IMG/VR virus record: IMGVR_UViG_3300032257_000005
Span: 1-64,000 of that record
Length of the DNA stretch: 64,000 nt
Source: a virus
Taxonomy: Duplodnaviria > Heunggongvirae > Uroviricota > Caudoviricetes
Direction: 5' to 3' (one strand)
The translations under genes and the position numbers were made by a program. Every line of letters begins with the position of its first letter. The stretch's first letter is position 1. This document shows, piece by piece, positions 8,183 to 53,174 of this stretch. The notes under the pieces were generated by a model. That model ran no database searches and was not told the origin of the DNA. It saw only the letters and a list, made by a program, of their open reading frames with translations.

Positions 8183-9397
8183 TTATCCTTTTACATTTAT
8201 AACTTGCTTTAATGTATGAACGATATCAACTAAATCAGATTGATTTTCCATAACTACATCAATAGATTTATATGCCGATGGTATTTCATCAATTCTTGCT
8301 TCATCTTTTGGACATTCAATACCTTCTGTTTGTGAAATTAAATCATCAACTGTATACATTTTTTTAGCTTGATTTCGCCCTAACTTTCTACCAGCACCAT
8401 GAGAACATGAACAAAATGAATCTTTATTACCTTTACCTTTTACAATAAATGATTTTGCTCCCATACTGCCGGGTATAATTCCCATATCGCCTTCACGCGC
8501 ACGAATAGCACCTTTTCGAGTAACCCAAACATTTGAACCAAAATGGTTTTCTCTTGATATATAATTGTGGTGACAATTGATTGCACTTTTATCTGTTCCG
8601 AAATTTCCAAAATGATTATGTAGAACTTTTAAAACTGCTTGCATCATAACTAAACGACTTTGTTCAGCGAAATCTTGCGCCCATAAAACAGCATTACAAT
8701 AATCATCAAATATTTCTGTATGCTCAACTAAATAAGAAAGGTCTTTATCTGGAAGAAAAGGTGTAATATGATAACGTTCCATTTCACGTTTTGCTTGTTC
8801 AATAAAATATGAACCTATTTTATTTCCAGCACCCCTTGAGCCTGAATGTAACATAACCCAAACATTATCATTTTCATCAAGACATATTTCAATAAAATGA
8901 TTTCCTCCACCAAGCGTACCCATATGCTGCCATGAATTATAACCTTTAGCTTTAGGATGCTTGAGTATTATTTCATCATAACGTGATGCTAAGGGAATCC
9001 ATCTATCTGAAGCATCTACTGAAATTGTATCTTGCCAACCACCTTTATCATTTATACCGCCATTATCAGTACGTCCATGTGGTACAGCCGCTTCAATATC
9101 AGTTCTGATAGTATGTAAATTATCCGGTAATTCATTAGCAGTAATTGTTGTTTTTACTGCAATCATTCCGCAACCAAGATCAACACCAACCGCAGCAGGT
9201 ATAATTGCGCCTTTTGATGGAATAACAGAACCGATAGTTGCACCCATACCCCAATGAACATCAGGCATAGCCGCAATATGTTTATGAATGAAATTCATTT
9301 GCGACATGTTTTCTAATTGCTTCATAGCATTATCATCTATGTCATTAGTCCATATTTTTACTGGCTTACCTTTATTTATAACTTTTTTTATTGGCAT
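8183..9397 (-). CDS. rtcB: RtcB-family RNA 3'-phosphate/2',3'-cyclic-phosphate ligase
   Basis: 404 aa. Typical RtcB segments are present: N-terminal ...AAMPDVHWGMGATIGSV..., ...HSGSRGAGNKIG..., and C-terminal ...CSCSHGAGRKLGR.... Confidence 0.8.
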   Translation of the reverse strand: MPIKKVINKGKPVKIWTNDIDDNAMKQLENMSQMNFIHKHIAAMPDVHWGMGATIGSVIPSKGAIIPAAVGVDLGCGMIAVKTTITANELPDNLHTIRTDIEAAVPHGRTDNGGINDKGGWQDTISVDASDRWIPLASRYDEIILKHPKAKGYNSWQHMGTLGGGNHFIEICLDENDNVWVMLHSGSRGAGNKIGSYFIEQAKREMERYHITPFLPDKDLSYLVEHTEIFDDYCNAVLWAQDFAEQSRLVMMQAVLKVLHNHFGNFGTDKSAINCHHNYISRENHFGSNVWVTRKGAIRAREGDMGIIPGSMGAKSFIVKGKGNKDSFCSCSHGAGRKLGRNQAKKMYTVDDLISQTEGIECPKDEARIDEIPSAYKSIDVVMENQSDLVDIVHTLKQVINVKG

Positions 9398-26746: not shown

Positions 26747-28015
26747 ATGCAATGGAAAAATAAAATAGTTGGTTACGGTGAAGATGCACCTGAAAACTTA
26801 TTGGCTAATCCTCAGAATTATAGATTGCATCCAAAGTACCAACAGGATGTACTAAAGGAGCAAATAGAAAAAGGCGGTATTATCGCACCTGTTATTGTCA
26901 ATAAACGCACAGGATTTATGATAGATGGTCACTTGCGAGTAACATTAGCTATTAGAGAAAATCAAAATACAATACCTATTGCTTATGTTGATCTATCTGA
27001 AGAAGATGAAAAGTTAATGCTTGCTACTTACGATGCTATAACTTATTTAGCAACAATAGAAGAAGATACGCGTAATACATTAGCGCAGGAAGTCGAAGAG
27101 CAGAAAGAAAATCTAGAAAAGTTATTAGATGAAATGCGTTTTGATCCACCTGCTGAAGATAATGAAGGTGAAGATGATGTACCAGAGGTTGAAGAAACTG
27201 CTATAAGTGTATTAGGCGATGTATGGATATTAGGAAATCATCGGTTAATGTGTGGTGACAGCACCAGTATAGATGCGGTTGAAAAGCTTATGGATGGACA
27301 GAAAGCCGATATGGTTTTTACAGATCCGCCTTATAACGTAAATTTTAAAGGTCAAGAATTAAGTAATACGACAAAAAATGGAAAAAAAATACTTCACCAT
27401 GAAGGTGCTAATACAAATCATGATAATATAAAAAATGATTGCATGGATGATAATTTATTTATTGAGTTTATAACATTATCATTAAATAATTTATCTAAAG
27501 TAAATAAAGGCGCATGGTATTTTTGTTTTGTTGATTTAAAGTTAGATTTAATTTTAGTGCCATTAAAGGAAACAGGTTTTTCTTGGAAATCAATAATTAT
27601 ATGGAAAAAAAATCAAGCTACTTTATCAGGCAAAGATTATAAAAGCAGATATGAGCCAATAGTGTATGGATGTCCTAGTAATTGCTTTTTTGGTGAAAGA
27701 TATAAACAGGAGGATATATGGGAGTTTACCCGAACACTTAAAAATGATTTGCATCCAACAATGAAGCCGATTCCGCTTATAGAAAATGCAATAAACAATT
27801 CATCTAAAGAAGAAATGAATGTAATAGATGTATTTGGCGGTTCAGGCTCTACTTTAATAGCTTGCGAGAAAACAAAACGTAATTGTTACATGATGGAACT
27901 AGACCCTAAATACATAGACGTAATAATTAAACGTTGGCAGGACTTCACAGGAAAACAAGCTACTCTTGAGAATACAGATAAAACATTTAAAGATATAGAA
28001 ACAGAACGATTATAA
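26747..28015 (+). CDS. ParB-like nuclease domain fused to a DNA (N6-adenine/N4-cytosine) methyltransferase
   Basis: N-terminal ...HPKYQQDVLKEQIEKGGIIAPVIVNKRTGFMIDGHLRVTLA... is a ParB-N/Srx fold. C-terminal ...MVFTDPPYNV... (motif IV DPPY) and ...DVFGGSGSTLIACEKTKRNCYMMELDPKY... (motif I) indicate a beta-class amino-methyltransferase. Confidence 0.7.
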   Translation: MQWKNKIVGYGEDAPENLLANPQNYRLHPKYQQDVLKEQIEKGGIIAPVIVNKRTGFMIDGHLRVTLAIRENQNTIPIAYVDLSEEDEKLMLATYDAITYLATIEEDTRNTLAQEVEEQKENLEKLLDEMRFDPPAEDNEGEDDVPEVEETAISVLGDVWILGNHRLMCGDSTSIDAVEKLMDGQKADMVFTDPPYNVNFKGQELSNTTKNGKKILHHEGANTNHDNIKNDCMDDNLFIEFITLSLNNLSKVNKGAWYFCFVDLKLDLILVPLKETGFSWKSIIIWKKNQATLSGKDYKSRYEPIVYGCPSNCFFGERYKQEDIWEFTRTLKNDLHPTMKPIPLIENAINNSSKEEMNVIDVFGGSGSTLIACEKTKRNCYMMELDPKYIDVIIKRWQDFTGKQATLENTDKTFKDIETERL

Positions 28016-34257: not shown

Positions 34258-35694
34258 TTGATGCATGACGAAGAAAGAATAAAACAAGTAATAGCTTTAC
34301 AGGCTGAATTATACAAACGTGATTTCAGAAAATTCTTTTATGAATCATGGAAAATAATAGAACCATCTAATCCCGTTATTCCAAATTGGCATTACGATTG
34401 TATTGCTGAATATCTTGAGGCCGTTACTGCCGGTCAAATCAAACGATTAATTATAAACATCGCACCTCGTACAGGTAAGAGCCGACAAATCACAACGGCT
34501 TGGCCTGTATGGGAATGGATTAAAAAACCTCATAACCGATATCTATTTAGTTCATATTCAGGTGATCTTGCGCGTGATCATTCGCGTGAGCGTAGACTTA
34601 TTATTGAAAGCGATTGGTATCAAGAACGATGGGGTGATGTGTTCAAGATGCAAGGCGATCAGAACGTAGTTACTTACTTTGCTAATGATAAAGGCGGTAG
34701 ACAGCAAGCGCGTGGTACAGGCGGTGGTGGTACAGGTAAGGGTGGATCAAGAGTGATTATTGATGATCCGCATAATGTTAAAGAAGCTAAATCACCTGTA
34801 CAAATTATAAAAGCTGTTCATGATTTTGATGAAAATCTATCAACACGTTTAGATAATCCAAATACAGGCGCGTTTGTATTGGTTATGCAGCGACTTAATA
34901 ACAATGATTTAACAGGTCATATATTAAGAGAAATTGGTGGATATGAAATATTAAAATTACCAACAATAGCTAAATCAAAAACAATCGTTATATTTCCTAT
35001 TAGCAAAAAAGAAAGAATACGTGAAGAAGGTGATATATTATTTCCGTCAAGGCATGGCCCTGAATATCTTGCAGAACAAAAACGATCATTAGGAACGGCA
35101 GGTTTTGAAGCACAACATGAACAAGAACCTTTAATTGTTGGTGGTGATCGAATTAAACTAGATTGGTTTGATCGTTATGCAGTAAGACCTCAAAAATGGT
35201 TTAGATGTATTCAGTCATGGGATACGGGTTTAAAGCCTAAAGACACAGCCGCACCAAGCGTATGCTTAACGTTTATTCAAGATGCTAAAGATCATCCGTG
35301 GAAGATAGTTGATGTATATAGGGAAAAAGTTGGTTATCCTAAATTACGTAAAGCGGTAATAGATCTACATACAAAATGGAATCCTGAAGCAATATTAATA
35401 GAAAACAAAGCGAGTGGTATACAGTTAGTGCAAGAATTAAAAGGTAATCTACCTGTTATACCGATTGAACCTGAATCTGATAAGCAAACAAGAATGGAAA
35501 CGCAATCACCGCATGTTGAATCAGGTCAACTATCATTGCCTGATGAAGCTAAATGGTTAGGTGATTTTGAAACTGAAATTATGCAATTTCCAAACTGCGA
35601 TACATGGGATCAGATAGATACATTAAGCCAATTCTTAAAATACATATTTACTAAAAAGAAAAAAATAGAGCAAAGGAAGTTGTCAGGGCTTTAA
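34258..35694 (+). CDS. terL: terminase large subunit
   Basis: Walker-A-like ...INIAPRTGKSRQ.... 478 aa. Acidic nuclease-domain residues lie in the C-terminal half. It is followed by the portal gene. Confidence 0.7.
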   Translation: MMHDEERIKQVIALQAELYKRDFRKFFYESWKIIEPSNPVIPNWHYDCIAEYLEAVTAGQIKRLIINIAPRTGKSRQITTAWPVWEWIKKPHNRYLFSSYSGDLARDHSRERRLIIESDWYQERWGDVFKMQGDQNVVTYFANDKGGRQQARGTGGGGTGKGGSRVIIDDPHNVKEAKSPVQIIKAVHDFDENLSTRLDNPNTGAFVLVMQRLNNNDLTGHILREIGGYEILKLPTIAKSKTIVIFPISKKERIREEGDILFPSRHGPEYLAEQKRSLGTAGFEAQHEQEPLIVGGDRIKLDWFDRYAVRPQKWFRCIQSWDTGLKPKDTAAPSVCLTFIQDAKDHPWKIVDVYREKVGYPKLRKAVIDLHTKWNPEAILIENKASGIQLVQELKGNLPVIPIEPESDKQTRMETQSPHVESGQLSLPDEAKWLGDFETEIMQFPNCDTWDQIDTLSQFLKYIFTKKKKIEQRKLSGL

Positions 35695-37723: not shown

Positions 37724-39241
37724 ATGAAGATGACTAACTTAACAGATAAAATAGTTGATATACTAACTAAGCATGATATTGATTTACATCGTGTAGAAGC
37801 TAGTGTTAGTAAAGAGATCATAGGTATGATAAATGGTCTTTCTGCACAATTGCGTAAGCGTATTTTAAAATTTGATCCAACTAGTGTAAAAAATCCTATC
37901 TTTATTAATAAACGATTAAAACAACTTGTGAGTGTTGCCGGTGGTGATATAGATCAGGTTTATGCAACACTTGAGAAAACGTTAGCGGCTGAATTAAAAG
38001 ATATTGCATTATTAGAAGGTAGAACAACAACAGATACAATAAACAGAGCTATGCAGGTTGAACTTGCAAGTAAACATGTTAATGCATCTAAATTAAAAGC
38101 GTTAGCTAGTCGATCTATGATTGAAGGCGCGGTTGTTAAGTCGTGGTGGAAAAATCAAAGCACATGGTTAAAAGATGCCTTTAAGCGAAACATGCAAGAA
38201 GGTATTATAGGCGGTGAAGATATAGGTACATTAGTTAGGCGTATTCGTGGTACAAGAGAATCAGGTTTTACTGATGGGTTAATGCGTACACCTACACACG
38301 CTGCAAGACGTTTAGCAAGATCTGCCGTTATTACTGTTGCTAATGATGCGCGTGTTATGACGTTTGAAGAAAATGCTGATGTAATAAAAGGGATGCAATG
38401 GCTCAGCACTTTTGATTCTAGAACAAGTGACCAGTGTATCGCTCTTGACGGACAATCTTGGTTCCTCGACGGGAGGAAGATGAAAGGTACAACCGCAGAC
38501 TGGCGTGGCCCTCCGCCAGCGCACTGGAATGCTTATTCAGAAGGAACATTAATCACTACCGAAAAAGGCCAAGTACCAATTGAAAATATTAAAATTGGCG
38601 ACAGTGTTCTAACACATAAAGGTCGATACAAAAAAGTATCAGCTACTATGAGTAAGCGCAATGACACGAACTTCATCAATCGTCTTACAACGGATTCAGG
38701 TCGTATTTTTTTTGCAACAGATGATCATCCAATACTTGTTGTTGATAGAGGATGGATTAGAATTGATGATATTATAATTAATGATAAATTATTTGAATTA
38801 AATAATGGTATTAAATGGAATACCCCATTAGTTATTGACATACATAAAATAGATTATATAGGAATGGTTTATAATCTTTCAGTTGAAGATGATGAAAGTT
38901 ATATTGCTGAAAATATAGTTACGCATAATTGCCGTTCAACTATCGTACCTATTACAAAAACGTTTTCTGAAATGAATCGTAATCCAGATCTGAAAGGTAA
39001 ATTAAAAAAAGCAGATAAAGCTACACAAAATACATTACGACAAAGTGCTGATGGTGGTGCTAGTGCAAAACTAAATTATGAAGGTTGGTTAAAGAAACGA
39101 CCAAAATCAGAACAGATAGAAGTGCTTGGTCGTACAAAATATAAATTATGGAAAGAAGGTAAGATAGGGTTTACAGATCTTATAGATCAGTCGCATAATT
39201 CGATATCTACAGATGTTCTATTAAAAAGATTTGATAAATAA
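37724..39241 (+). CDS. head morphogenesis protein, Mu F / SPP1 gp7 family, interrupted by a mini-intein
   Basis: Family motif ...MQWLSTFDSRTSDQCIALDGQ...GPPPAHWN | CRSTIVPI... is split by a ~133-aa insertion with intein blocks. Confidence 0.65.
   Translation: MKMTNLTDKIVDILTKHDIDLHRVEASVSKEIIGMINGLSAQLRKRILKFDPTSVKNPIFINKRLKQLVSVAGGDIDQVYATLEKTLAAELKDIALLEGRTTTDTINRAMQVELASKHVNASKLKALASRSMIEGAVVKSWWKNQSTWLKDAFKRNMQEGIIGGEDIGTLVRRIRGTRESGFTDGLMRTPTHAARRLARSAVITVANDARVMTFEENADVIKGMQWLSTFDSRTSDQCIALDGQSWFLDGRKMKGTTADWRGPPPAHWNAYSEGTLITTEKGQVPIENIKIGDSVLTHKGRYKKVSATMSKRNDTNFINRLTTDSGRIFFATDDHPILVVDRGWIRIDDIIINDKLFELNNGIKWNTPLVIDIHKIDYIGMVYNLSVEDDESYIAENIVTHNCRSTIVPITKTFSEMNRNPDLKGKLKKADKATQNTLRQSADGGASAKLNYEGWLKKRPKSEQIEVLGRTKYKLWKEGKIGFTDLIDQSHNSISTDVLLKRFDK
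38531..38929 (+). mobile_element. mini-intein (~133 aa, no homing endonuclease domain) inside the Mu F-like protein; +1 Cys at 38930
   Basis: Block A-like SEGTLITTEKGQVPIENIKIGDSVLT, block B T-x-x-H (FATDDHPILV), block G VYNLSVEDDESYIAENIVTHN followed by Cys. Flanking exteins reconstitute the PP-x-H-x-N-C-R motif. Confidence 0.6.
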
Positions 39242-39880: not shown

Positions 39881-40927
39881 ATGATTGCACAACCACTTGA
39901 AGCACCTATACATCTACGGGGTTTAAGTTTAGCCGCTACCAAACAGAAAGGCGGCAATAAAATAAAGTTCGTAAATCCAAATACAGACAACTATGAACGA
40001 AATCTAAATTATGCAGCCGCTTTACATAAGGCAGGTGTTGCTACTATCAAACGAAATGAGCTAAAAGGTAAAAACGCAGTTATTATTGGATCAGGTTCAA
40101 CATTAAAAGATCCTGATGTTATGGTTGAATTACTTAGATTGAAAGATGAAGGTTATATTTTATTTGCCTGTAAGCAAGCCATTAAAGTTTTAGTTGATGC
40201 AGGTATAACACCTCAATACGCGGTAACAATGGACCCCGGCCAGCACATTGCTAGACCTGAAAAGATATACAAAGCTGAAGGCACTACACATATTGTAGCC
40301 AGTTCAAGCGATCCGTTATTATGGCAATACTTATTAGCTGGTATGCCTTTTGGTGATTGGATTAAATCATTAAGCGAAGAAGATCAGAAAAAAGTATTAG
40401 AGAAAGATTACGATAATTACAAATCTGGAACCTACGAATTAAATGATGCTGGTGTTGATAAAGCTGAAGTATTAATATTTCATTCTGCTACAGGCTATGA
40501 AAATGAAGTAAAAATGTATAATGAATTATTTGATTTACATGATTGTATGGGTGGTGGATATAACGTTGTGAACAGAGCGTTATCTGCTGCAATGTTTATG
40601 GGTGTTGATAATATCGTTATGGCTGGTACTGATTGTGGCTGGCGCGTAGATGGAAAATTTTATGCTGATGATACAAATAATCGTCCCGGTGTTGATATGA
40701 ACGATGGGATGATGGTTGAAGGGACTGATAAAAACGGACAAAAAATAAATAACCCAAACGCTAGAGAATGGTTCACAAGACCTGATATGCTTGCATCTGG
40801 CGTAGCATTAGCTAAACTTGCAATTAAGTTCAATGGAAAAATTAAATTCATTGGTGATACACTTCCTGCAAAACTTATTGAGAAGGATGATTCTTTTTTA
40901 AATAAGTGTGCAAGTTTTCATAGTTGA
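39881..40927 (+). CDS. hypothetical protein, possibly Maf/DUF115-like (MptE-like) glycosyltransferase fold
   Basis: ...NAVIIGSGSTLKDPDVMVELLRLKDEGYILFACKQAIKVLVDAGITPQYAVTMDP... resembles the iiGxGPSL...ac..a...L...gI.PDy..s.D signature of the motility-associated-factor family. This is memory-based, not verified. Confidence 0.25.
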   Translation: MIAQPLEAPIHLRGLSLAATKQKGGNKIKFVNPNTDNYERNLNYAAALHKAGVATIKRNELKGKNAVIIGSGSTLKDPDVMVELLRLKDEGYILFACKQAIKVLVDAGITPQYAVTMDPGQHIARPEKIYKAEGTTHIVASSSDPLLWQYLLAGMPFGDWIKSLSEEDQKKVLEKDYDNYKSGTYELNDAGVDKAEVLIFHSATGYENEVKMYNELFDLHDCMGGGYNVVNRALSAAMFMGVDNIVMAGTDCGWRVDGKFYADDTNNRPGVDMNDGMMVEGTDKNGQKINNPNAREWFTRPDMLASGVALAKLAIKFNGKIKFIGDTLPAKLIEKDDSFLNKCASFHS

Positions 40928-43483: not shown

Positions 43484-44241
43484 TGATCATTACATCGTTC
43501 AGTCAAAAAGGTTATCATGAGTATGGTAAACGGTTCATCACCACCTTTTTAGAACATTGGAAAGATGAAAAACTAACTGTTTATTATGAAAACGGTATAC
43601 CTTCAAGCAGGCCACAAGATAAACGTATTCAATATATTAATCTATGTCAATATGACGATTTCAATTCGTTTGAAAAAACATTATTAGAATCAGATCCAAT
43701 GTATCAAGGTATGATTGCATCACCTCCTAATGGTGATAAAGCGTATAACTTTAGATATAACGCCGCTAAATTCTTCAAAAAAGTATTTTGTATTGCTCAT
43801 GCTACTCGTAAGACTAAAGAAAAAGTTACGTGGGTTGATGCTGATGTTGAGTTTGTAAAAGAACTTCCTGAAGGTTTTATAGATAGCATATTACCTGATG
43901 ATATGTATTTAGCACATTTAGCACGTGAATGGCTTTATACTGAAGCTGGGTTTATGATTTTCAATTGTAATCATGCATCACATGAATACTTTATGCCGTT
44001 ATATTTAAACATGTATTTCACAGGTGCGTTTAAATACTTAGGTGAGTTTCATGATTGTTATGTATTGGATTGTTTAACTAAATTATTACAAGTTCCATGC
44101 GTTAATATTAATCCTAATGAAAAATCAAATCATCCATTCCAAGAATCTGTTATAGGTGAGTATATGCATCACTATAAAGGGCCAGAACGTAAAAAAGCTG
44201 GTGCTTTACTTGATACCGATCCTAAGAGGAAAACAGCATGA
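43483..44241 (+). CDS. hypothetical protein, possible nucleotide-sugar transferase (DxD-like VDADVEF)
   Basis: ORF; weak DxD context. First gene of the sugar island. Confidence 0.25.
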   Translation: MIITSFSQKGYHEYGKRFITTFLEHWKDEKLTVYYENGIPSSRPQDKRIQYINLCQYDDFNSFEKTLLESDPMYQGMIASPPNGDKAYNFRYNAAKFFKKVFCIAHATRKTKEKVTWVDADVEFVKELPEGFIDSILPDDMYLAHLAREWLYTEAGFMIFNCNHASHEYFMPLYLNMYFTGAFKYLGEFHDCYVLDCLTKLLQVPCVNINPNEKSNHPFQESVIGEYMHHYKGPERKKAGALLDTDPKRKTA

Positions 44242-44669
44242 AACGTAGATCATTCTTAACAAGTTTAGGTTTAATTGGAGCAGCTTCTTTTACAAAAGCA
44301 TCTGAACACTTGCCAGAAAAAATGATTGAAGCTACTAACGATGAGATATCTAATAGATTTTCAGTAGTTACAAAACCAGTTGAAAATATAACTAATGTGG
44401 ATTTTGGATTAATTATTAATGGTGTTAGCTATCGCACTATTGATTATTCAATATCTTATGAATCAGGTTTTATAATAAACAGAGAATTAAATGCGTCAAT
44501 ATATCTAGATAAGCTATCACTTGATTCCGGTGAAGAAGTAACCGTTGAATTAATACATAAAGAAGTTAATATTCATGAAAAGTTTAACGCCGTTATTACT
44601 CGTACAACAACAAGCATAGGATATGATAGCCCTTTAATTATGGATATAATTTTGAAGGAAGTATCATGA
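44238..44669 (+). CDS. exported protein with a twin-arginine (Tat) signal peptide
   Basis: MKRRSFLTSLGLIGAASFTKASE... has the S/T-R-R-x-F-L pattern plus a hydrophobic core and an A-x-A-like cleavage region. Confidence 0.45.
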   Translation: MKRRSFLTSLGLIGAASFTKASEHLPEKMIEATNDEISNRFSVVTKPVENITNVDFGLIINGVSYRTIDYSISYESGFIINRELNASIYLDKLSLDSGEEVTVELIHKEVNIHEKFNAVITRTTTSIGYDSPLIMDIILKEVS

Positions 44670-46681
44670 AGAAAGCACTTATAACTGGCATCACCGGCCA
44701 AGATGCAGCTTATCTTTCTGAATTACTTTTATCTAAAGGCTATGAAGTTCATGGAGCATCACCACGTAGAGCGTCCGGTAATTATTGGCGGCTACAATCA
44801 ATAGGGATACTTGATGATGAAGATAATCCTAGAGATAAGAATTTTAAATTAAAGTCACTAGATGTTACCTGTAGTTCATCAGTCACCAATATTATTAAGG
44901 ATGGACAATACGATGAAATTTATAATCTCGCTGCTCAAAGTTTTGTTGCCGAATCGTTTAATTCGCCTACAGCGACTTTCAACATCAATGCGATTGGAGT
45001 CCTCAATCTCCTTGAAGCGATTAAAATAAACTCACCAGAAAGTAAATTTTACCAAGCATCAACATCTGAAATGTTTGGATTAGTTAATATGGAGGCACAA
45101 AATGAAGAAACACCATTCCATCCACGTTCCCCTTACGGGGTGGCAAAAGTTGCAGCGCATTATGCGGTATGTAATTACCGCGAAGCATACGGATTATTTG
45201 CGAGCTGCGGAATCTTGTTCAACCACGAAAGTCCCTTGCGAGGAATCGAATTTGTCACAAGAAAAATTACTGATGGAGTGGCAAAAATCATTGCAGGTAA
45301 GCAAGAGAAATTATCGTTAGGTAATTTAGATGCATATCGTGATTGGGGTCATGCAAAAGATTATTGTATAAATAAAGATGTTCCAATGCTTACACCTAAT
45401 GGCTGGAAGTATTTTAATGAATTAAATATTGGTGATGAAGTTATTAACTTTAATCCTGAAACAAATTCACTATCAAGAGATATTATATTACAGGTTGTTG
45501 AACCTAAAATAGATTCATCTAAGAAAATACGTTTAACTGGTAGGTCAATAGATTTAACTTGTACACAAAACCATAGAATTTATTATCAACAAAAATCTAT
45601 AAATTCAAAAGGTGGTTGGAGTGATTGGAAAGTTACAACTGCTAGTGAATTTAATTATAAATTGAATATACTTGAAAATAGATCAAAATATGATTATAGA
45701 TTGCCACATTTTCAAGATTATAATGGTATTGAAAATAACAAAGTAACTGATAATCAAATATATCTTGTTGGTGCTTTATTAGCAGAAGGTCATTTAAGAA
45801 CAATACATAAACAGGGTAGAGGGCATAATGTAACAGTTTCTCAATCTGAAATTGCTAATCCTAGAATACATAATAAAATAAAATCAATACTAGATAATTT
45901 TAATTTTAAATATAGCGAAAGATTAAATAATTCAGGTGTTACTGAATGGGTTATTAATGCAGAAAATACTGAAGATATACTTAAATGGTTTGATAGTAAT
46001 GACTTACATAAAATGCCTACTTGGTGTTTTTCATTATCACAACGACAATCGAAAATATTATTTGATTCAATGATGGATTGTGATGGTTGTTGGGGTTCTA
46101 TGCAATACATTTCAAAACGATATAAATTATTAACAGATTTTCAAACAATAGCAGCAATTAGTGGTTATCAAACAACGAATCCAAAACAAGATAAATTTGG
46201 GTGCTGGAGAATAGCAAGTATTGTACAAAGAAGAAAATACTCATATATAACTAAAGCAGAAGAAATTGATGATGGAATTACAGATGTTTGGTGTATAACT
46301 ACAAATAATGGAACAATTATATCAAGAGATAAAGGATTGATATCAATATCTGGAAATTGTTACGGCATGTATTTAATGATGCAACAAGAAACACCTGATG
46401 ATTACGTATTAGCTACAGGTGTAAAACATTCTGTAAGAGATGTATTACGAATATGTTTTGAACGCTTTGATATGTTTTATCCTGACTATGTTGAAATGGA
46501 TCAACGGTATATGCGGCCTAGTGATGTTCCATTATTATTAGGTGATGCAACTAAAGCACATGAAAAACTTAATTGGCATCCATCATATGATTTTGAATTA
46601 TTAATAACTGAAATGCTTGATTATGATTTAGCGTGTCAAGGTGTCGATGCTATTAAATTGTTAGCGGATAGCTATAAATAA
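44666..46681 (+). CDS. gmd: GDP-mannose 4,6-dehydratase interrupted by a full-size LAGLIDADG intein
   Basis: Exteins [30 protein letters not shown]...[10 protein letters not shown]...FNHESPLRG...RDWGHAKDY | [21 protein letters not shown]...[16 protein letters not shown] are near-collinear with bacterial Gmd. Confidence 0.8.
   Translation: [671 protein letters not shown]
45365..46357 (+). mobile_element. intein with a LAGLIDADG homing-endonuclease domain (331 aa) inside gmd; +1 Cys at 46358
   Basis: Starts [13 protein letters not shown] (block A) and ends ...ISGN. The two dodecapeptide motifs are ...[12 protein letters not shown]... and ...[13 protein letters not shown].... The insertion site lies inside the conserved [9 protein letters not shown]/C-xxMWLMLQ segment. 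Confidence 0.7.
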
Positions 46682-46703: not shown

Positions 46704-47348
46704 ATGTTACCACAAACAGGTGAAAGACAAGTTGCAGAACATATCGAAGGTATTAAACCAAACCATCGACAGCGTTATCAATTTGGTATAGATAAAATTA
46801 AAGAACATTTTTGTGCGCTAGAAAGGCCTATTACAATATTGGATGCTGCATGTGGTGTTGGTTACGGTACTATGATGATAGCTGAATCATTAGCTGATGG
46901 ATCTGATTTAAAAGGTAGTGTATTAGGTGTTGATATATTTGAAGGTGCTGTAGAGGCTGCAAAACGTGCATATAAATTAGATAACAATGATTTCATGCAA
47001 TTAGATTTAGGTAATTCTGATTTATGGAATGAAAAAATAGATAATGTCGATGCTATTGTCAGTATTGAAACTATTGAACATGTTAAAGATGCTGAAGATT
47101 TAATAAAGCGATATGCAGAAAAAACTAATTTTCTTATAGGTTCGGTTCCAAATGAAGATGTAGTCCCTTTTAATGCAATTACACATCCATTTCATTTTAG
47201 ACATTATACAAATAGTGAATTTGAAACATTGCTTAACGATTATGGTTTTAAAATAAAAGCGATAGGAACTCAATACGATAAAATTCCCGGCTTTGTTTAT
47301 CCGGGAGATGATGGTTATGGGAACGTTGTTTGTGCTATTAAAGAATAA
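46704..47348 (+). CDS. class I SAM-dependent methyltransferase
   Basis: Motif I ...ILDAACGVGYGT.... Confidence 0.5.
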   Translation: MLPQTGERQVAEHIEGIKPNHRQRYQFGIDKIKEHFCALERPITILDAACGVGYGTMMIAESLADGSDLKGSVLGVDIFEGAVEAAKRAYKLDNNDFMQLDLGNSDLWNEKIDNVDAIVSIETIEHVKDAEDLIKRYAEKTNFLIGSVPNEDVVPFNAITHPFHFRHYTNSEFETLLNDYGFKIKAIGTQYDKIPGFVYPGDDGYGNVVCAIKE

Positions 47349-47349
47349 T

Positions 47350-47814
47350 ATGAAAACTTTATTAGAAAGATTTAATGAAAAATGGATACCTGTAACAGAA
47401 AGTGGTTGCTGGATATGGACTGCCTTTGTAAATGAAAAAGGATATGGAAAATTTACCAATAATGGTAAAACTTATAGATCACATAGACTTTCATATGAAT
47501 TGTATATTGGTGAAATACCTGATGGTTTATATGTTTGTCATGAATGTGATAATACTTTTTGCGTTAATCCAAATCATCTTTTTTTAGGAAGTCAATTAGA
47601 TAATATACATGATATGTTAAACAAAGGTAGAGGATCAGCACCTCCTTTATTTAAAGGTGAAGATCATTCATTGTCAAAATTAACAGAAAATAATGTGATT
47701 GAGATTCGTAAATCTAAACATATGACACATAGACAATTAGCGGAAAAATATAATGTTAGTAAAAAACTTATATTTAATGTAATACATAAAAAAGCTTGGA
47801 GTCATGTACCGTGA
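47350..47814 (+). CDS. HNH homing endonuclease (paralogue of 51965..52437)
   Basis: ...GCWIWTAFVNEKGYGKFTNNGKTYRSHRLSYELYIGEIPDGLYVCHECDNTFCVNPNHLFLGSQLDN... is the HNH_3 pattern. It is wedged between the methyltransferase and the next gene with overlapping stop/start. Confidence 0.7.
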   Translation: MKTLLERFNEKWIPVTESGCWIWTAFVNEKGYGKFTNNGKTYRSHRLSYELYIGEIPDGLYVCHECDNTFCVNPNHLFLGSQLDNIHDMLNKGRGSAPPLFKGEDHSLSKLTENNVIEIRKSKHMTHRQLAEKYNVSKKLIFNVIHKKAWSHVP

Positions 47815-51974: not shown

Positions 51975-52437
51975 ATATAAAAATAAATTAGAATCATTTA
52001 ATGATAAATACGAAGTTGTTGAAGAATTAGGTTGTTGGGTATGGACTGCATCAATATTAAAAGTAGGATATGGTTGCATGAGATGGGATGGTAAGACACA
52101 ATTATCACATAGAGTTTCTTATGATCTGCATAAAGGAAAAATACCAGATGGTATGCATGTTTTACATAAATGTGATAATAGATTTTGTGTAAATCCTAAT
52201 CATCTTTTTATTGGGACAAACTTAGATAATATAAAGGATAGATTATCTAAGAATAGACCAAAAACAGGATGTGTAGGTGAGAAATCTGGTAGAGCAATAT
52301 TATCAGAAGTTGATGTTAATAATATAAGAGCGATAAAAAAATATTGCAAATGCACACAGCAACAGTTAGCAGATATATATAATGTTTCAAAATCATGTAT
52401 AAATCATGCAATTCACTACAATTGGAAACATATATGA
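51965..52437 (+). CDS. HNH homing endonuclease (paralogue of 47350..47814)
   Basis: ...GCWVWTASILKVGYGCMRWDGKTQLSHRVSYDLHKGKIPDGMHVLHKCDNRFCVNPNHLFIGTNLDN.... Confidence 0.7.
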
Positions 52438-53174
52438 ACTACTTAGATAATGATATGCCAAAATGCTTCATTGGTTATGATAGAGCTGAATCTGCGGCTT
52501 TTTATACTTTATGTCATTCAATATGGAGGCGAGCATCAAGACCTGTTCATATTATACCTATTATGCTATCTGAACTTAAAGGTTTGATGTGGCGTGATCG
52601 TGATCCAATGCAAAGCAATGATTTTTCATTCAGTCGATTTTTAGTGCCGTATCTTTGTAATTATGAAGGTAAGGCGTTATTCATAGATGCGGATATGATG
52701 GTTGTTGATGATATTAATAACTTGTTTGATTTGTTTGATGATAGCTATTCAGTTCAATGTGTAAAGCATAATCATGTACCTATAGAAGAAGTAAAATATT
52801 TAGGTAATGTACAAACAAAATATAACAAGAAAAATTGGTCAAGTGTGCTATTATTCAATAATAGTAAGTGTTCTGCTCTCACCCCTGAATACATCAATAC
52901 TGCAAGTGGCTTAGATTTACATCAATTTAAGTGGCTTGATTCTGACAGTGAAATTGGTGATTTGCCTTTGCGTTGGAATTTTTTAGTATCGTACTATCAT
53001 GATTTACCTATAGAGGAAATTAGCTTACTTCACTGGACTGAGGGAGGGGCTTATTTTAATGACTACAAGAATTGTCCATATGCAGATATTTGGCAAGATG
53101 AATATAAAGATATGATTCATGTAACACAACCAGCAAGTGTTCATTATAGTGAAGTATCAGAAAAAATAGTATAG
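52434..53174 (+). CDS. glycosyltransferase family 8-like protein
   Basis: ...FSRFLVPYLCNYEGKALFIDADMMVVDDINNLFD... is a GT8-type DxD region. Confidence 0.45.
   Translation: MNYLDNDMPKCFIGYDRAESAAFYTLCHSIWRRASRPVHIIPIMLSELKGLMWRDRDPMQSNDFSFSRFLVPYLCNYEGKALFIDADMMVVDDINNLFDLFDDSYSVQCVKHNHVPIEEVKYLGNVQTKYNKKNWSSVLLFNNSKCSALTPEYINTASGLDLHQFKWLDSDSEIGDLPLRWNFLVSYYHDLPIEEISLLHWTEGGAYFNDYKNCPYADIWQDEYKDMIHVTQPASVHYSEVSEKIV

What the first reader, a model, noticed from the sequence alone, without database searches (positions are those of the whole stretch)
45365..46357. Full-length LAGLIDADG intein inside the phage gmd gene
The Gmd reading frame is continuous but carries a 331-aa insertion exactly inside the conserved RDWGHAKDY|xxMWLMLQQ segment. 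The insertion starts with Cys ([14 protein letters not shown]...) and contains two LAGLIDADG-type dodecapeptides ([25 protein letters not shown]). It ends ...ISGN followed by Cys. Flanking exteins align collinearly with bacterial Gmd.
Inteins in sugar-nucleotide enzymes are rare. The terminal ...SGN without the usual penultimate His is atypical and may affect splicing chemistry.
Basis: partly seen in the sequence, partly recalled or inferred. Interest (0 to 1): 0.75.

Follow-up and report, generated by a model that had tools for sequence, protein, structure and literature searches.

The report
Homing-endonuclease intein in phage Gmd
A phage gene for the sugar-nucleotide enzyme GDP-mannose 4,6-dehydratase is interrupted in frame by a complete self-splicing protein element (an intein with a homing endonuclease), a normal member of a known phage-associated intein group sitting in an apparently unreported host protein.

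Summary
ORF 44666..46681 (671 aa) is a Gmd interrupted by 331 codons (45365..46357) that start with Cys and end Ser-Gly-Asn before Cys+1. Removing them gives a 340-aa protein that aligns without a gap to solved Gmd structures. Pfam does not recognise the insert. An AlphaFold model (pLDDT 89) matches full-length inteins such as TliVMA, PI-SceI and PI-PfuI, and matches I-DmoI for the endonuclease. The insert has about 2,900 relatives embedded in many different host proteins.

The "atypical" SGN end is normal for this group. Of 117 full-length relatives, 115 have Gly before the last Asn, 105 have Cys at block F position 4, and 96 have Arg or Lys after the block B His. Two relatives with this layout were shown by others to splice well: the mycobacteriophage Bethlehem RDF intein and AceL NrdHF.

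The same intein sits at the same Gmd site in about 19 other metagenomic sequences from bacteria, archaea and large viruses. Syntenic relatives of this phage have intein-less gmd, with Val where Cys+1 stands.

Verdict: a real, probably active class 1 intein, and a new member of a known kind. I found no paper describing a Gmd intein. Interest is moderate.

The parts
44666..46681 (+). Gmd precursor ORF: 671 aa plus stop, calculated 76.6 kDa.
   Evidence: The exact protein is on three contigs of 50-200 kb.
44666..45364 (+). N-extein, 233 aa. It holds the Rossmann/NADP-binding part with [10 protein letters not shown], the STSE and YGVAK catalytic motifs, and ends ...RDWGHAKDY.
   Evidence: PF16363 positions 1-231. 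Aligned to 1RPN. GC 38.8%.
45365..46357 (+). Intein, 331 aa, 38.2 kDa: a Hint splicing domain split by a LAGLIDADG homing-endonuclease domain.
   Evidence: AF2 pLDDT 89.2, pTM 0.87. Foldseek matches TliVMA at 4e-14 (TM 0.74), PhoVMA, PI-SceI and PI-PfuI. 2,867 relatives. GC 27.2% against a window mean of 32.4%.
45365..45403 (+). Block A (N1), [13 protein letters not shown], with the Cys1 nucleophile at 45365-45367.
   Evidence: Cys1 is present in all same-site Gmd inteins read through their N-terminal junction, and in all 117 full-length matches (178 of 182 N-terminal starts) among relatives.
45545..45586 (+). Block B (N3), [14 protein letters not shown], with Thr67 (B:7), His70 (B:10), Arg71 (B:11) and Ile72 (B:12).
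   Evidence: Among 117 relatives: T or S 116, His 117, Arg/Lys 96. It aligns to ...VSPNHRMIY of AceL NrdHF 6zgq.
45737..46219 (+). LAGLIDADG homing-endonuclease domain, about residues 125-285. Boundaries are approximate and taken from the model's secondary structure.
   Evidence: Foldseek matches I-DmoI at about 1e-06 with target-normalised TM 0.68. PF14528 LAGLIDADG_3 is hit by 4 of 11 family members, best 4.5e-09.
45761..45790 (+). LAGLIDADG motif 1, [10 protein letters not shown], with putative catalytic Glu141.
   Evidence: Glu is kept in all family members except the Bacteroidia copy, which has Lys.
46055..46087 (+). LAGLIDADG motif 2, [11 protein letters not shown], with putative catalytic Asp240.
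   Evidence: Asp-Gly (Asn-Gly in P0002) is kept in the family members that cover it.
46283..46327 (+). Block F (C2), [15 protein letters not shown]. Cys310 is at F:4, and Gly316 stands where His F:13 usually is.
   Evidence: F:4 is Cys in 105 of 117 relatives; the F:13 equivalent is Gly in 80 of 117. The same VWC is in Museum gp52 RDF, and VYC in the Shivani RNR intein.
46337..46360 (+). Block G (C1), LISISGN plus Cys+1, with Ser329 (G:5), Gly330 (G:6), Asn331 (G:7) and Cys+1 (46358-46360).
   Evidence: G:6 is Gly in 115 of 117, G:7 is Asn in 117 of 117, and G:5 is Thr in 64 and Ser in 27. The +1 residue is C/S/T in relatives.
46358..46681 (+). C-extein, 107 aa plus stop. It starts [21 protein letters not shown]. 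Cys+1 replaces the Val found in intein-less alleles.

Best explanation
The insert is a bona fide, full-length, mobile intein in the gmd gene of an uncultured tailed phage.

Splicing (inferred, not shown). After translation of the 76.6-kDa precursor, the Hint domain most likely splices by the standard class 1 route.
- Cys1 makes the N-S acyl shift. Thr67 and His70 (block B TxxH) activate the scissile bond.
- Cys+1 takes over the N-extein by trans-thioesterification.
- Asn331 cyclises to release the 38.2-kDa intein.
- An S-N shift then yields a contiguous 38.4-kDa Gmd, with Cys in place of the usual Val after RDWGHAKDY.

The missing histidines. [quoted passage not shown] By homology with the solved relative AceL NrdHF, Arg71 (B:11) probably takes their role by contacting the C-scissile carbonyl. 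Ser329 (G:5) probably holds His70. Cys310 occupies the active-site position that Asp holds in most class 1 inteins.

Mobility. The nested LAGLIDADG domain keeps both acidic residues (Glu141, Asp240). It most likely cuts intein-less gmd at the conserved ...GAYTGGGG...GAYTAY|GTN... site and so drives homing. This would explain why the same intein sits at the same site in unrelated bacteria, archaea and viruses.

What is shown and what is inferred. Shown here: anatomy, fold, conservation of the catalytic positions, collinear exteins, presence/absence among syntenic phages, and incongruent intein and extein similarity. Inferred: actual splicing, the choice of nucleophile, the role of Arg71, and endonuclease activity.
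For: Anatomy and collinear exteins.

Fold: the AF2 model has pLDDT 89.2. Its best PDB matches are homing-endonuclease-bearing inteins: TliVMA at E 4.3e-14 (TM 0.74), then PhoVMA, PI-SceI and PI-PfuI. I-DmoI matches the endonuclease part.

Sequence: a family profile hits the AceL NrdHF intein 6zgq at E 2e-06 and a BIL Hint domain. Four of 11 family members hit Pfam LAGLIDADG_3.

Relatives: 2,867 relatives were found. Most of the listed matches align end to end (query 1 to 331/332) with internal segments of proteins of 400-3,300 aa. Hosts include NrdD, RNA ligase and other Gmds, as well as annotated phage inteins in RNR ('contains intein splice site') and the mycobacteriophage RDF/phosphoesterase.

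Catalytic positions in 117 full-length relatives: Cys1 117, B:10 His 117, B:11 Arg/Lys 96, F:4 Cys 105, G:6 Gly 115, G:7 Asn 117. The combined signature CHRCSGN, which is this intein's, is the second most common after CHRCTGN.

Experimental precedent for this layout: the Bethlehem gp51 RDF intein splices completely, its endonuclease is toxic in E. coli, and G316H slows splicing (PMC5050341). In AceL NrdHF, with T-G-N and Arg69, G145H is dead and R69A is slow (PMC7891396).

Same site in other genomes: P0001-P0013, viral contigs L081-L084, genomes L092-L095 and L098.

Syntenic relatives: phage contigs L002, L003 and L007 share scaffold, MCP at 63-69%, o43483, gmd, methyltransferase and o47796. 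Their gmd is intein-less, with Val at the +1 position.

Incongruence: L093 (Patescibacteria) and L094 (Methanosarcinales) have inteins 69% identical but exteins 58% identical. L092 and L094 have exteins 72% identical but inteins 49% identical.

Composition: intein GC is 27.2% against 38.8% in the N-extein.
Against: - No experiment exists for this protein. Splicing and endonuclease activity are inferred.
- Pfam and NCBIfam intein and Hint models do not match the insert itself, even at E up to 1.
- Both histidines that usually assist Asn cyclisation are absent.
- Cys at F:4 together with Ser-Gly-Asn, and the closest solved relative being an experimentally class 3 intein, leave the identity of the first nucleophile open.
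- The closest intein copy is only 57% identical, so no recent homing event is visible.
- The syntenic intein-less phages are only 63-69% identical in the capsid protein.
- I could not read the model's coordinates to measure active-site distances.
Confidence: 0.85

Rival explanations
1. Class 3-type or dual-nucleophile splicing. [quoted passage not shown] Cys1 would then be dispensable or serve a redox or regulatory role.
For: - The closest solved relative by sequence is AceL NrdHF. It is experimentally class 3 and has the same layout: SxxH-R, Cys at C2:4, T-G-N, and no F:13 or G:6 His.
- F:4 Cys is conserved in 105 of 117 relatives and G:5 is Thr or Ser in 91 of 117.
- One clade member, P0046, naturally starts with Ala.
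- Hoffmann 2020 note that AceL NrdHF behaves 'more like a class 1' intein at several positions.
Against: - Cys1 is conserved in 178 of 182 N-termini in the clade and in all Gmd copies. That is not expected if it were dispensable.
- B:12 is Ile, not the class 3 Trp.
- Cys is the second most common residue at F:4 among inteins in general (Mills 2014, PMC4031507).
- Kelley 2016 classed the mycobacteriophage inteins that begin with Cys, including the RDF intein, as class 1.
Confidence: 0.1
2. A decayed or domesticated intein remnant that no longer splices. Either the 77-kDa protein is non-functional (gmd is a pseudogene in effect), or it works with the insert as a permanent domain.
For: Both assisting histidines are absent. 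Pfam intein models do not match. Gmd is accessory for a phage, so loss could be tolerated.
Against: - Every catalytic position of the clade is intact: Cys1, Thr67, His70, Arg71, Cys310, Asn331 and Cys+1.
- The 331 codons are open, with chance probability about 3e-15.
- The +1 residue is Cys in the other 17 intein-bearing copies read through the junction (Ser in two more), and Val in all intein-less alleles examined, which implies selection for splicing.
- The insert splits the invariant RDWGxAxDY|VxxMW motif in the middle of the fold.
- Relatives with this exact layout splice efficiently.
Confidence: 0.04
3. An ordinary lineage-specific Gmd insertion domain that is not an intein.
For: None beyond the absence of direct Pfam hits.
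Against: - The fold matches full-length inteins.
- Homologous inserts lie in NrdD, RNR, RNA ligase, phosphoesterase and many other unrelated hosts.
- The closest Gmds lack the insert.
Confidence: 0.01

Closest known systems
Mycobacteriophage Bethlehem gp51 (and Museum gp52) RDF/metallophosphoesterase intein, a class 1 intein with penultimate Gly (Kelley et al. 2016, mBio, PMC5050341)
   Same: It is a full-length intein with a LAGLIDADG endonuclease in a phage gene. It has Cys1, TxxH, V-W-C in block F and T-G-N at the end, and it aligns end to end at about 24% identity. It was shown to splice completely, and putting His at the penultimate position slows it.
   Different: The host protein and insertion site differ. 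Its +1 residue is Ser, not Cys, and its G:5 is Thr, not Ser. Identity is only about 24%.
AceL NrdHF split intein (PDB 6zgq; Hoffmann et al. 2020, PMC7891396)
   Same: It is the best solved match by sequence (E 2e-06). Block B reads S/TxxH-R with a hydrophobic residue at B:12. It has Cys at C2:4, ends T/S-G-N, and lacks both assisting His residues. Arg at B:11 compensates. It comes from a phage-like contig.
   Different: AceL NrdHF starts with Ala and is proven class 3. It is naturally split, with a free-standing GIY-YIG gene in place of a nested LAGLIDADG domain. Its host is NrdF. Only the N-terminal half aligns significantly by HMM.
Archaeal and yeast homing-endonuclease inteins TliVMA, PhoVMA, PI-SceI and PI-PfuI (PDB 7qsu, 7qst, 1ef0, 1dq3)
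   Same: The overall architecture is the same: a Hint domain interrupted by a two-motif LAGLIDADG endonuclease. Foldseek E runs from 4e-14 to 1e-09, with TM up to 0.74.
   Different: Sequence identity is 10-13%. Those inteins are larger and, from general knowledge, carry the canonical His-Asn end.
T5-like phage RNR large-subunit inteins (e.g. Salmonella phage Shivani, annotated 'contains intein splice site')
   Same: They belong to the same clade: Cys1, TPNH, VYC in block F, and C-G-N plus Ser at the C-terminal junction. Identity is about 25% over the full length.
   Different: The host protein is different, a DNA-precursor enzyme of the kind typical for inteins.

Membership tests
Intein (Hint-fold protein-splicing element), class 1 | In-frame insertion in a conserved host protein, with the exteins collinear with intein-less homologs. 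| tested here: met
   The spliced sequence gives one gapless match to TIGR01472 and to 1RPN. Intein-less alleles exist.
Intein (Hint-fold protein-splicing element), class 1 | Hint fold. | tested here: met
   The AF2 model (pLDDT 89) matches TliVMA, PhoVMA, PI-SceI and PI-PfuI. The family profile hits 6zgq and the BIL domain 2lwy. Direct Pfam Hint/Intein_splicing models do not match.
Intein (Hint-fold protein-splicing element), class 1 | N-terminal nucleophile (Cys/Ser/Thr at position 1). | tested here: met
   Cys1 is at 45365-45367. It is conserved in all Gmd copies and in 178 of 182 clade N-termini.
Intein (Hint-fold protein-splicing element), class 1 | Block B TxxH. | tested here: met
   T67-Q-N-H70.
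Intein (Hint-fold protein-splicing element), class 1 | C-terminal Asn followed by Cys/Ser/Thr at +1. | tested here: met
   Asn331 and Cys+1.
Intein (Hint-fold protein-splicing element), class 1 | Penultimate His (G:6). This is common but not defining. | tested here: not met
   The residue is Gly330. Gly is the norm in this clade (115 of 117), and published work shows it is compatible with splicing.
Intein (Hint-fold protein-splicing element), class 1 | Actual protein splicing that yields ligated exteins. | not testable with these tools
   This needs expression with tagged or MS detection.
LAGLIDADG homing endonuclease (two-motif, monomeric) | Two LAGLIDADG helices, each ending in an acidic residue followed by Gly. 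| tested here: met
   [10 protein letters not shown] (Glu141) and [11 protein letters not shown] (Asp240).
LAGLIDADG homing endonuclease (two-motif, monomeric) | The fold of the family. | tested here: met
   I-DmoI matches at about 1e-06 with target TM 0.68. LAGLIDADG_3 is hit by 4 of 11 family members.
LAGLIDADG homing endonuclease (two-motif, monomeric) | Site-specific cleavage of the intein-less allele (homing). | not testable with these tools
   Only indirect evidence is available: the same site across three domains and viruses, presence/absence in syntenic phages, and incongruent intein and extein identities.
Class 3 intein | No Cys/Ser/Thr nucleophile at position 1. | tested here: not met
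   Cys1 is present and conserved.
Class 3 intein | WCT triplet: Trp at B:12, Cys at F:4, Thr at G:5. | tested here: inconclusive
   The residues are Ile72, Cys310 and Ser329, so only the Cys matches exactly. The proven class 3 relative AceL NrdHF itself has Met-Cys-Thr.
Class 3 intein | Block F branched intermediate, with an absolute requirement for the F:4 Cys. | not testable with these tools
   This needs C1A and C310A mutants.
GDP-mannose 4,6-dehydratase (host protein) | Match to the family models and to solved Gmd structures over the full length. | tested here: met
   PF16363 gives 1.3e-111 and 1RPN gives 1.6e-107. The TIGR01472 score of the spliced form is 411.8 bits, just under the 415-bit equivalog cut-off. 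The name is therefore well supported, but the exact substrate is not proven.

The most novel reading that the evidence does not exclude
The Gmd intein belongs to a large, mostly phage- and virus-associated clade with the signature Cys1 ... His-Arg ... Trp-Cys(F:4) ... Thr/Ser-Gly-Asn. This clade would be the natural bridge between class 1 and class 3 splicing. Its F:4 Cys would already sit within reach of the N-scissile bond and could initiate splicing when Cys1 is lost, oxidised or blocked. That would explain how AceL NrdHF (Ala1) and P0046 (Ala1) arose from Cys1 ancestors by a single substitution. It would run against the view that class 3 inteins cannot evolve directly from class 1 (Beyer 2020, PMC7664689). 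In the phage, three active-site cysteines (Cys1, Cys310, Cys+1) could also make Gmd maturation redox-conditional.
Probability: 0.15. Interest if true: 0.6.

Novelty: new member of a known kind. Interest (0 to 1): 0.38.

Why it matters
- It adds a new host protein and insertion site, Gmd after RDWGxAxDY, to the intein catalogue. I found no paper that describes a Gmd intein. The large survey by Novikova et al. lists only UDP-glucose/GDP-mannose dehydrogenase among sugar-nucleotide enzymes.
- It shows that current Pfam and NCBIfam models miss this intein clade entirely. It also shows that annotation pipelines truncate such genes. For example, NCBI protein P0007 starts inside the intein although the 663-aa ORF is intact.
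- Gmd turns out to carry inteins at three or more sites in uncultured organisms. This fits the rule that inteins target invariant active-site motifs, and extends it beyond replication proteins.
- The penultimate-Gly/B:11-Arg layout with a short, well-defined target could be a useful splicing and endonuclease reagent.
- None of this changes how inteins are understood.

Tried and rejected
1. Megablast of the gene against 50,697 deposited phage genomes found no match. The phage is uncultured, and its capsid protein is only about 46% identical to Vibrio phage MAR10-like siphoviruses.
2. Pfam, NCBIfam and PHROGs on the insert alone gave nothing significant. PDB phmmer with the single sequence gave only weak hits. 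A family profile was needed.
3. Twelve IMG/VR loci (the first being L034) showed a 1,439-nt match and looked like mini-intein-bearing gmd genes. Inspection of L034 showed that the extra length is tblastn joining an adjacent SDR gene, and its Gmd is intein-less. I rejected this lead.
4. I tried to align the C-terminal half to 6zgq with a 'mini-intein' profile. Only the N half aligned. The C half was compared by eye with the IntC sequence in the paper's supplement.
I repeated it with the single sequence.
6. Tori and Perler 2011 (class 3 definition; PMC3133030) is not held. What I say about class 3 inteins that start with Ser or Cys rests only on the remark in Tori 2010.
7. I could not extract coordinates from the AF2 model, so no active-site distances were measured.
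8. I considered an assembly chimera. I rejected it because the exact protein lies on three long contigs and homologous precursors are intact ORFs in about 19 other sequences.
Full report
**1. Observation**

The region is as described. ORF 44666..46681 (+) encodes 671 aa. Residues 1-233 and 565-671 are GDP-mannose 4,6-dehydratase: PF16363 gives E 1.3e-111 in two stretches, and TIGR01472 gives 389.6 bits. Between them lie 331 codons, 45365..46357. They begin with TGT (Cys) and end TCT-GGA-AAT (Ser-Gly-Asn), and TGT (Cys) follows.

Deleting the 331 codons in silico gives a 340-aa protein. It matches TIGR01472 in a single stretch (residues 2-325 against model positions 1-340 of 342, 411.8 bits). 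It also aligns without a gap across the junction to P. aeruginosa GMD 1RPN: [19 protein letters not shown] against RDWGFAGDYVEAMWLMLQQ, E 1.6e-107.

With the insert's own composition (27% GC), 331 stop-free codons have a chance probability of about 3e-15. The other five frames hold 13-60 stops. The exact protein occurs on three long metagenomic contigs, one of which (86.3 kb) was read.

**2. What the insert is**

Direct family searches fail. There is no Pfam hit at E up to 1, nothing meaningful in NCBIfam, and only a marginal PHROG hit to an intein-bearing PhoH family. Three independent lines nevertheless identify the insert as a full-length intein with a nested LAGLIDADG endonuclease.

- **Structure.** An AlphaFold2 model built on 11 family sequences has mean pLDDT 89.2 and pTM 0.87.
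  - Its best PDB matches are the endonuclease-bearing inteins TliVMA (E 4.3e-14, TM 0.74), PhoVMA, PI-SceI and PI-PfuI.
  - The free-standing LAGLIDADG enzyme I-DmoI follows for the central domain.
- **Profile searches.** A profile of the family hits the AceL NrdHF intein (6zgq, E 2e-06) and a bacterial intein-like Hint domain.
  - Four of 11 family members hit Pfam LAGLIDADG_3 (best 4.5e-09), and one hits Hom_end.
- **Exhaustive HMMER search.** It finds 2,867 relatives (331 below 1e-10).
  - Most of the listed matches align from query residue 1 to 331 or 332 with an internal segment of proteins of 400-3,300 aa.
  - Sampled hosts are NrdD, an RNA ligase and other Gmds.
  - In deposited phages the relatives are the T5-like RNR intein (annotated 'contains intein splice site') and mycobacteriophage inteins in the RDF/phosphoesterase and a DNA methylase.

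**3. Catalytic positions and the 'atypical' SGN end**

I placed the standard blocks on the sequence.

| Block | Sequence | Key residues |
|---|---|---|
| A | [13 protein letters not shown] | Cys1 |
| B | [14 protein letters not shown] | Thr67 (B:7), His70 (B:10), Arg71 (B:11), Ile72 (B:12) |
| F | [15 protein letters not shown] | Cys310 (F:4), Gly316 where His F:13 usually stands |
| G | LISISGN + Cys | Ser329 (G:5), Gly330 (G:6), Asn331 (G:7), Cys+1 |

The counts among 117 relatives that align over the full length are as follows.

| Position | Count (of 117) |
|---|---|
| Cys1 | 117 |
| B:7 Thr or Ser | 116 |
| B:10 His | 117 |
| B:11 Arg or Lys | 96 |
| F:4 Cys | 105 |
| F:13 equivalent Gly | 80 |
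| G:5 Thr / Ser | 64 / 27 |
| G:6 Gly | 115 |
| G:7 Asn | 117 |

The combined signature C-H-R-C-S-G-N, which is this intein's, is the second most frequent after C-H-R-C-T-G-N. The missing penultimate His is therefore the rule in this clade, not a defect of this copy.

Published work on two relatives with this layout shows that it works.

- Kelley et al. 2016 report that phage class 1 inteins often replace the penultimate His by Gly, Lys or Ser. The Bethlehem gp51 RDF intein (penultimate Gly) splices to completion, its endonuclease is toxic, and G316H causes precursor accumulation (PMC5050341). The orthologous Museum gp52 intein aligns with ours and shows C1, TANH, EVWC and HLTGN|S.
- Hoffmann et al. 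2020 show that AceL NrdHF lacks both the C2:13 and C1:6 His and ends Thr-Gly-Asn. G145H inactivates it. Arg69 at N3:11 lies 2.5 A from the C-scissile carbonyl, and R69A slows splicing (PMC7891396).

Our Arg71 is the equivalent residue. That it replaces the penultimate His here is an inference from homology.

**4. Which cysteine starts the reaction?**

AceL NrdHF is an experimentally proven class 3 intein: Ala1, with the first attack by Cys124 at C2:4. Its IntC sequence...EFHCLSVPGKSFVVTDEHGNRSVTGN|S (supplement), lines up with our ...[26 protein letters not shown]. The Gmd intein shares everything with it except residue 1.

Three points favour the ordinary class 1 route.
- Cys1 is conserved in 178 of 182 clade N-termini and in every Gmd copy.
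- B:12 is Ile rather than the class 3 Trp.
- Cys is the second most common residue at F:4 in inteins generally (Mills 2014).

On this reading Cys310 stands in the place of the usual Asp. A class 3-type or dual mechanism cannot be excluded, and I rate it at about 0.1. One clade member, P0046, naturally starts with Ala.

**5. Distribution and mobility**

- **Same intein, same site.** It sits between ...RDWG[HYF]A..[DE][YF] and C[EKRY][AG]M... in ten proteins from the word-indexed search. These include MAGs of Pyrinomonadaceae, Bacteroidia and Omnitrophota.
  - It is also in three further representatives (P0011-P0013).
  - It is in four IMG/VR contigs of 18-389 kb (L081-L084, 49-56% identity).
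  - It is in four GTDB genomes: Anaerolineae, Patescibacteria, a Methanosarcinales archaeon and another archaeon.
- **Closest viral Gmds lack it.** None of the 80 closest viral Gmds carries an intein; the best is L001 at 68%.
- **Syntenic relatives.** Contigs L002, L003 and L007 are syntenic relatives of this phage, sharing scaffold, capsid protein at 63-69% identity, o43483, gmd, methyltransferase and o47796 (L003 lacks a detectable methyltransferase match).
  - Their gmd is uninterrupted.
  - L002 also lacks the HNH gene and the 143-aa ORF that flank gmd here.
- **The +1 codon.** All intein-less alleles have Val (GTN) at the +1 position. The window and 17 of the 19 other copies read through the junction have Cys (TGY); two, P0004 and P0007/L098, have Ser.
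- **Intein and extein similarity disagree.**
  - The Patescibacteria and Methanosarcinales copies have inteins 69% identical and exteins 58% identical.
  - The Anaerolineae and Methanosarcinales copies have exteins 72% identical and inteins 49% identical.
- **Composition.** The intein is more AT-rich (27.2% GC) than the N-extein (38.8%) or the window (32.4%).

Both LAGLIDADG acidic residues (Glu141, Asp240) are intact here. The Bacteroidia copy has Lys at the first one and is probably inactive. Together these points argue for horizontal spread by homing. However, the nearest copy is only 57% identical, so no recent event is documented.

**6. Comparison with what is known, and novelty**

This is a canonical intein in every structural respect. 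It belongs to a populous, already sampled clade of phage- and virus-associated class 1 inteins with penultimate Gly.

What appears new is the host protein and site. Full-text searches for inteins together with GDP-mannose returned no description of a Gmd intein. The broad survey of Novikova et al. lists only UDP-glucose/GDP-mannose dehydrogenase among sugar-nucleotide enzymes. From memory, and not checked, InBase listed inteins in a Trichodesmium nucleotide-sugar epimerase-like protein.

Gmd in fact carries inteins at three or more sites. P0016 (1,059 aa) has one inside the catalytic ...AAS|TSEMFG motif. It has another, from the same clade, 17 residues downstream of our site...PEDY|CISSD...FVGN|CMATGE.

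I therefore file it as a new member of a known kind, of moderate interest.

**7. Context**

The window is part of an uncultured tailed phage. It has a terminase at 34258.., a portal, a Mu-F-like protein, a scaffold, and a P22-type capsid protein about 46% identical to Vibrio phage MAR10.

gmd lies within the head-gene region. Nearby are a SAM methyltransferase, an MptE/Maf-like protein and a family 8 glycosyltransferase, which suggests a virion or host glycan modification pathway. This last point is inference.

**8. Limits**

Nothing here shows splicing or DNA cleavage directly. The mechanism rests on conservation, a predicted fold and experiments on relatives that are 24% identical or less.

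Noticed in passing
window 38531..38929 (within ORF 37724..39241, +): A second intein lies in the same phage. It is a 133-aa Hint mini-intein inside the Mu-F-like head-morphogenesis protein. It interrupts the MuF domain at Pfam position 106 of 112: ...GPPPAHWN | AYSEGTLITT...ATDDHPILV...MVYNLSVEDDESYIAENIVTHN | CRSTIVP.

It starts with Ala, so it has no N-terminal nucleophile. It has Asn, not Cys or Asp, at block F position 4, and it ends Thr-His-Asn before Cys+1. It is therefore neither class 1 nor class 3 by sequence, and it looks class 2-like (KlbA-like).

Pfam gives Hint_2 at 33.5 bits and Intein_splicing at 33.9 bits. The best PDB matches are the BIL domain 2lwy (9e-10) and the class 2 Mja KlbA intein 2jmz (1e-05). 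The only word-indexed homolog, P0158 (40% identity), also aligns with Ala at position 1, Asn at F:4 and HN|C. Reviews state that all known class 2 inteins are KlbA orthologs, so this one may deserve its own follow-up.
   Followed up: partly
window 47293..47814 (+); gene called as 47317..47814 in the source contig: A free-standing HNH_3 homing-endonuclease gene (PF13392, 2.2e-08) lies between the methyltransferase and the next conserved ORF. The syntenic relative L002 has only a 33-nt gap at that place. This is therefore a second mobile insertion in the same small gene cluster.
   Followed up: partly
window 44238..44669 (+): A 143-aa ORF lies immediately upstream of gmd and overlaps it by 4 nt. 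It has a twin-arginine-like N-terminus (MKRRSFLTSLGLIGAASF...). It has no Pfam hit and no counterpart in the syntenic contigs L002, L003 and L007.
   Followed up: no
P0016 (1,059 aa, representative library): This Gmd carries two other inteins at different sites. One is inside the catalytic ...HAAS|...AHN|TSEMFG motif. The other, from the same clade as ours (28% identity, ending VGN|C), lies 17 residues downstream of our site, at ...PEDY|C...|CMATGE. Gmd therefore has at least three intein insertion points.
   Followed up: partly
L098 682..2673 (Bacteroidia MAG JBMOGB010000001.1): NCBI's annotated protein P0007 (390 aa, 'GDP-mannose 4,6-dehydratase') starts inside the intein, although the full 663-aa intein-bearing ORF is intact. 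P0006 and P0008 look the same. Annotation pipelines evidently do not recognise this intein clade, and Pfam gives no hit on the window's insert. This copy has Lys in place of the first LAGLIDADG Glu, and Ser at +1.
   Followed up: yes
window 39881..40927, 46704..47348, 52395..53174 (all +): Sugar-modification genes are interleaved with the virion structural genes. They are an MptE/Maf-like protein (PF01973, 2.6e-17), a SAM methyltransferase next to gmd, and a family 8 glycosyltransferase. No GDP-fucose synthase, Rmd or aminotransferase partner for Gmd was recognised among the ORFs scanned.
   Followed up: no
window 8183..9397 (-) and 26747..28015 (+): The phage encodes an RtcB RNA ligase (PF01139, 8.8e-122). 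It also encodes a 422-aa DNA methylase whose N6_N4_Mtase match comes in two stretches. I did not check whether that reflects an insertion.
   Followed up: no
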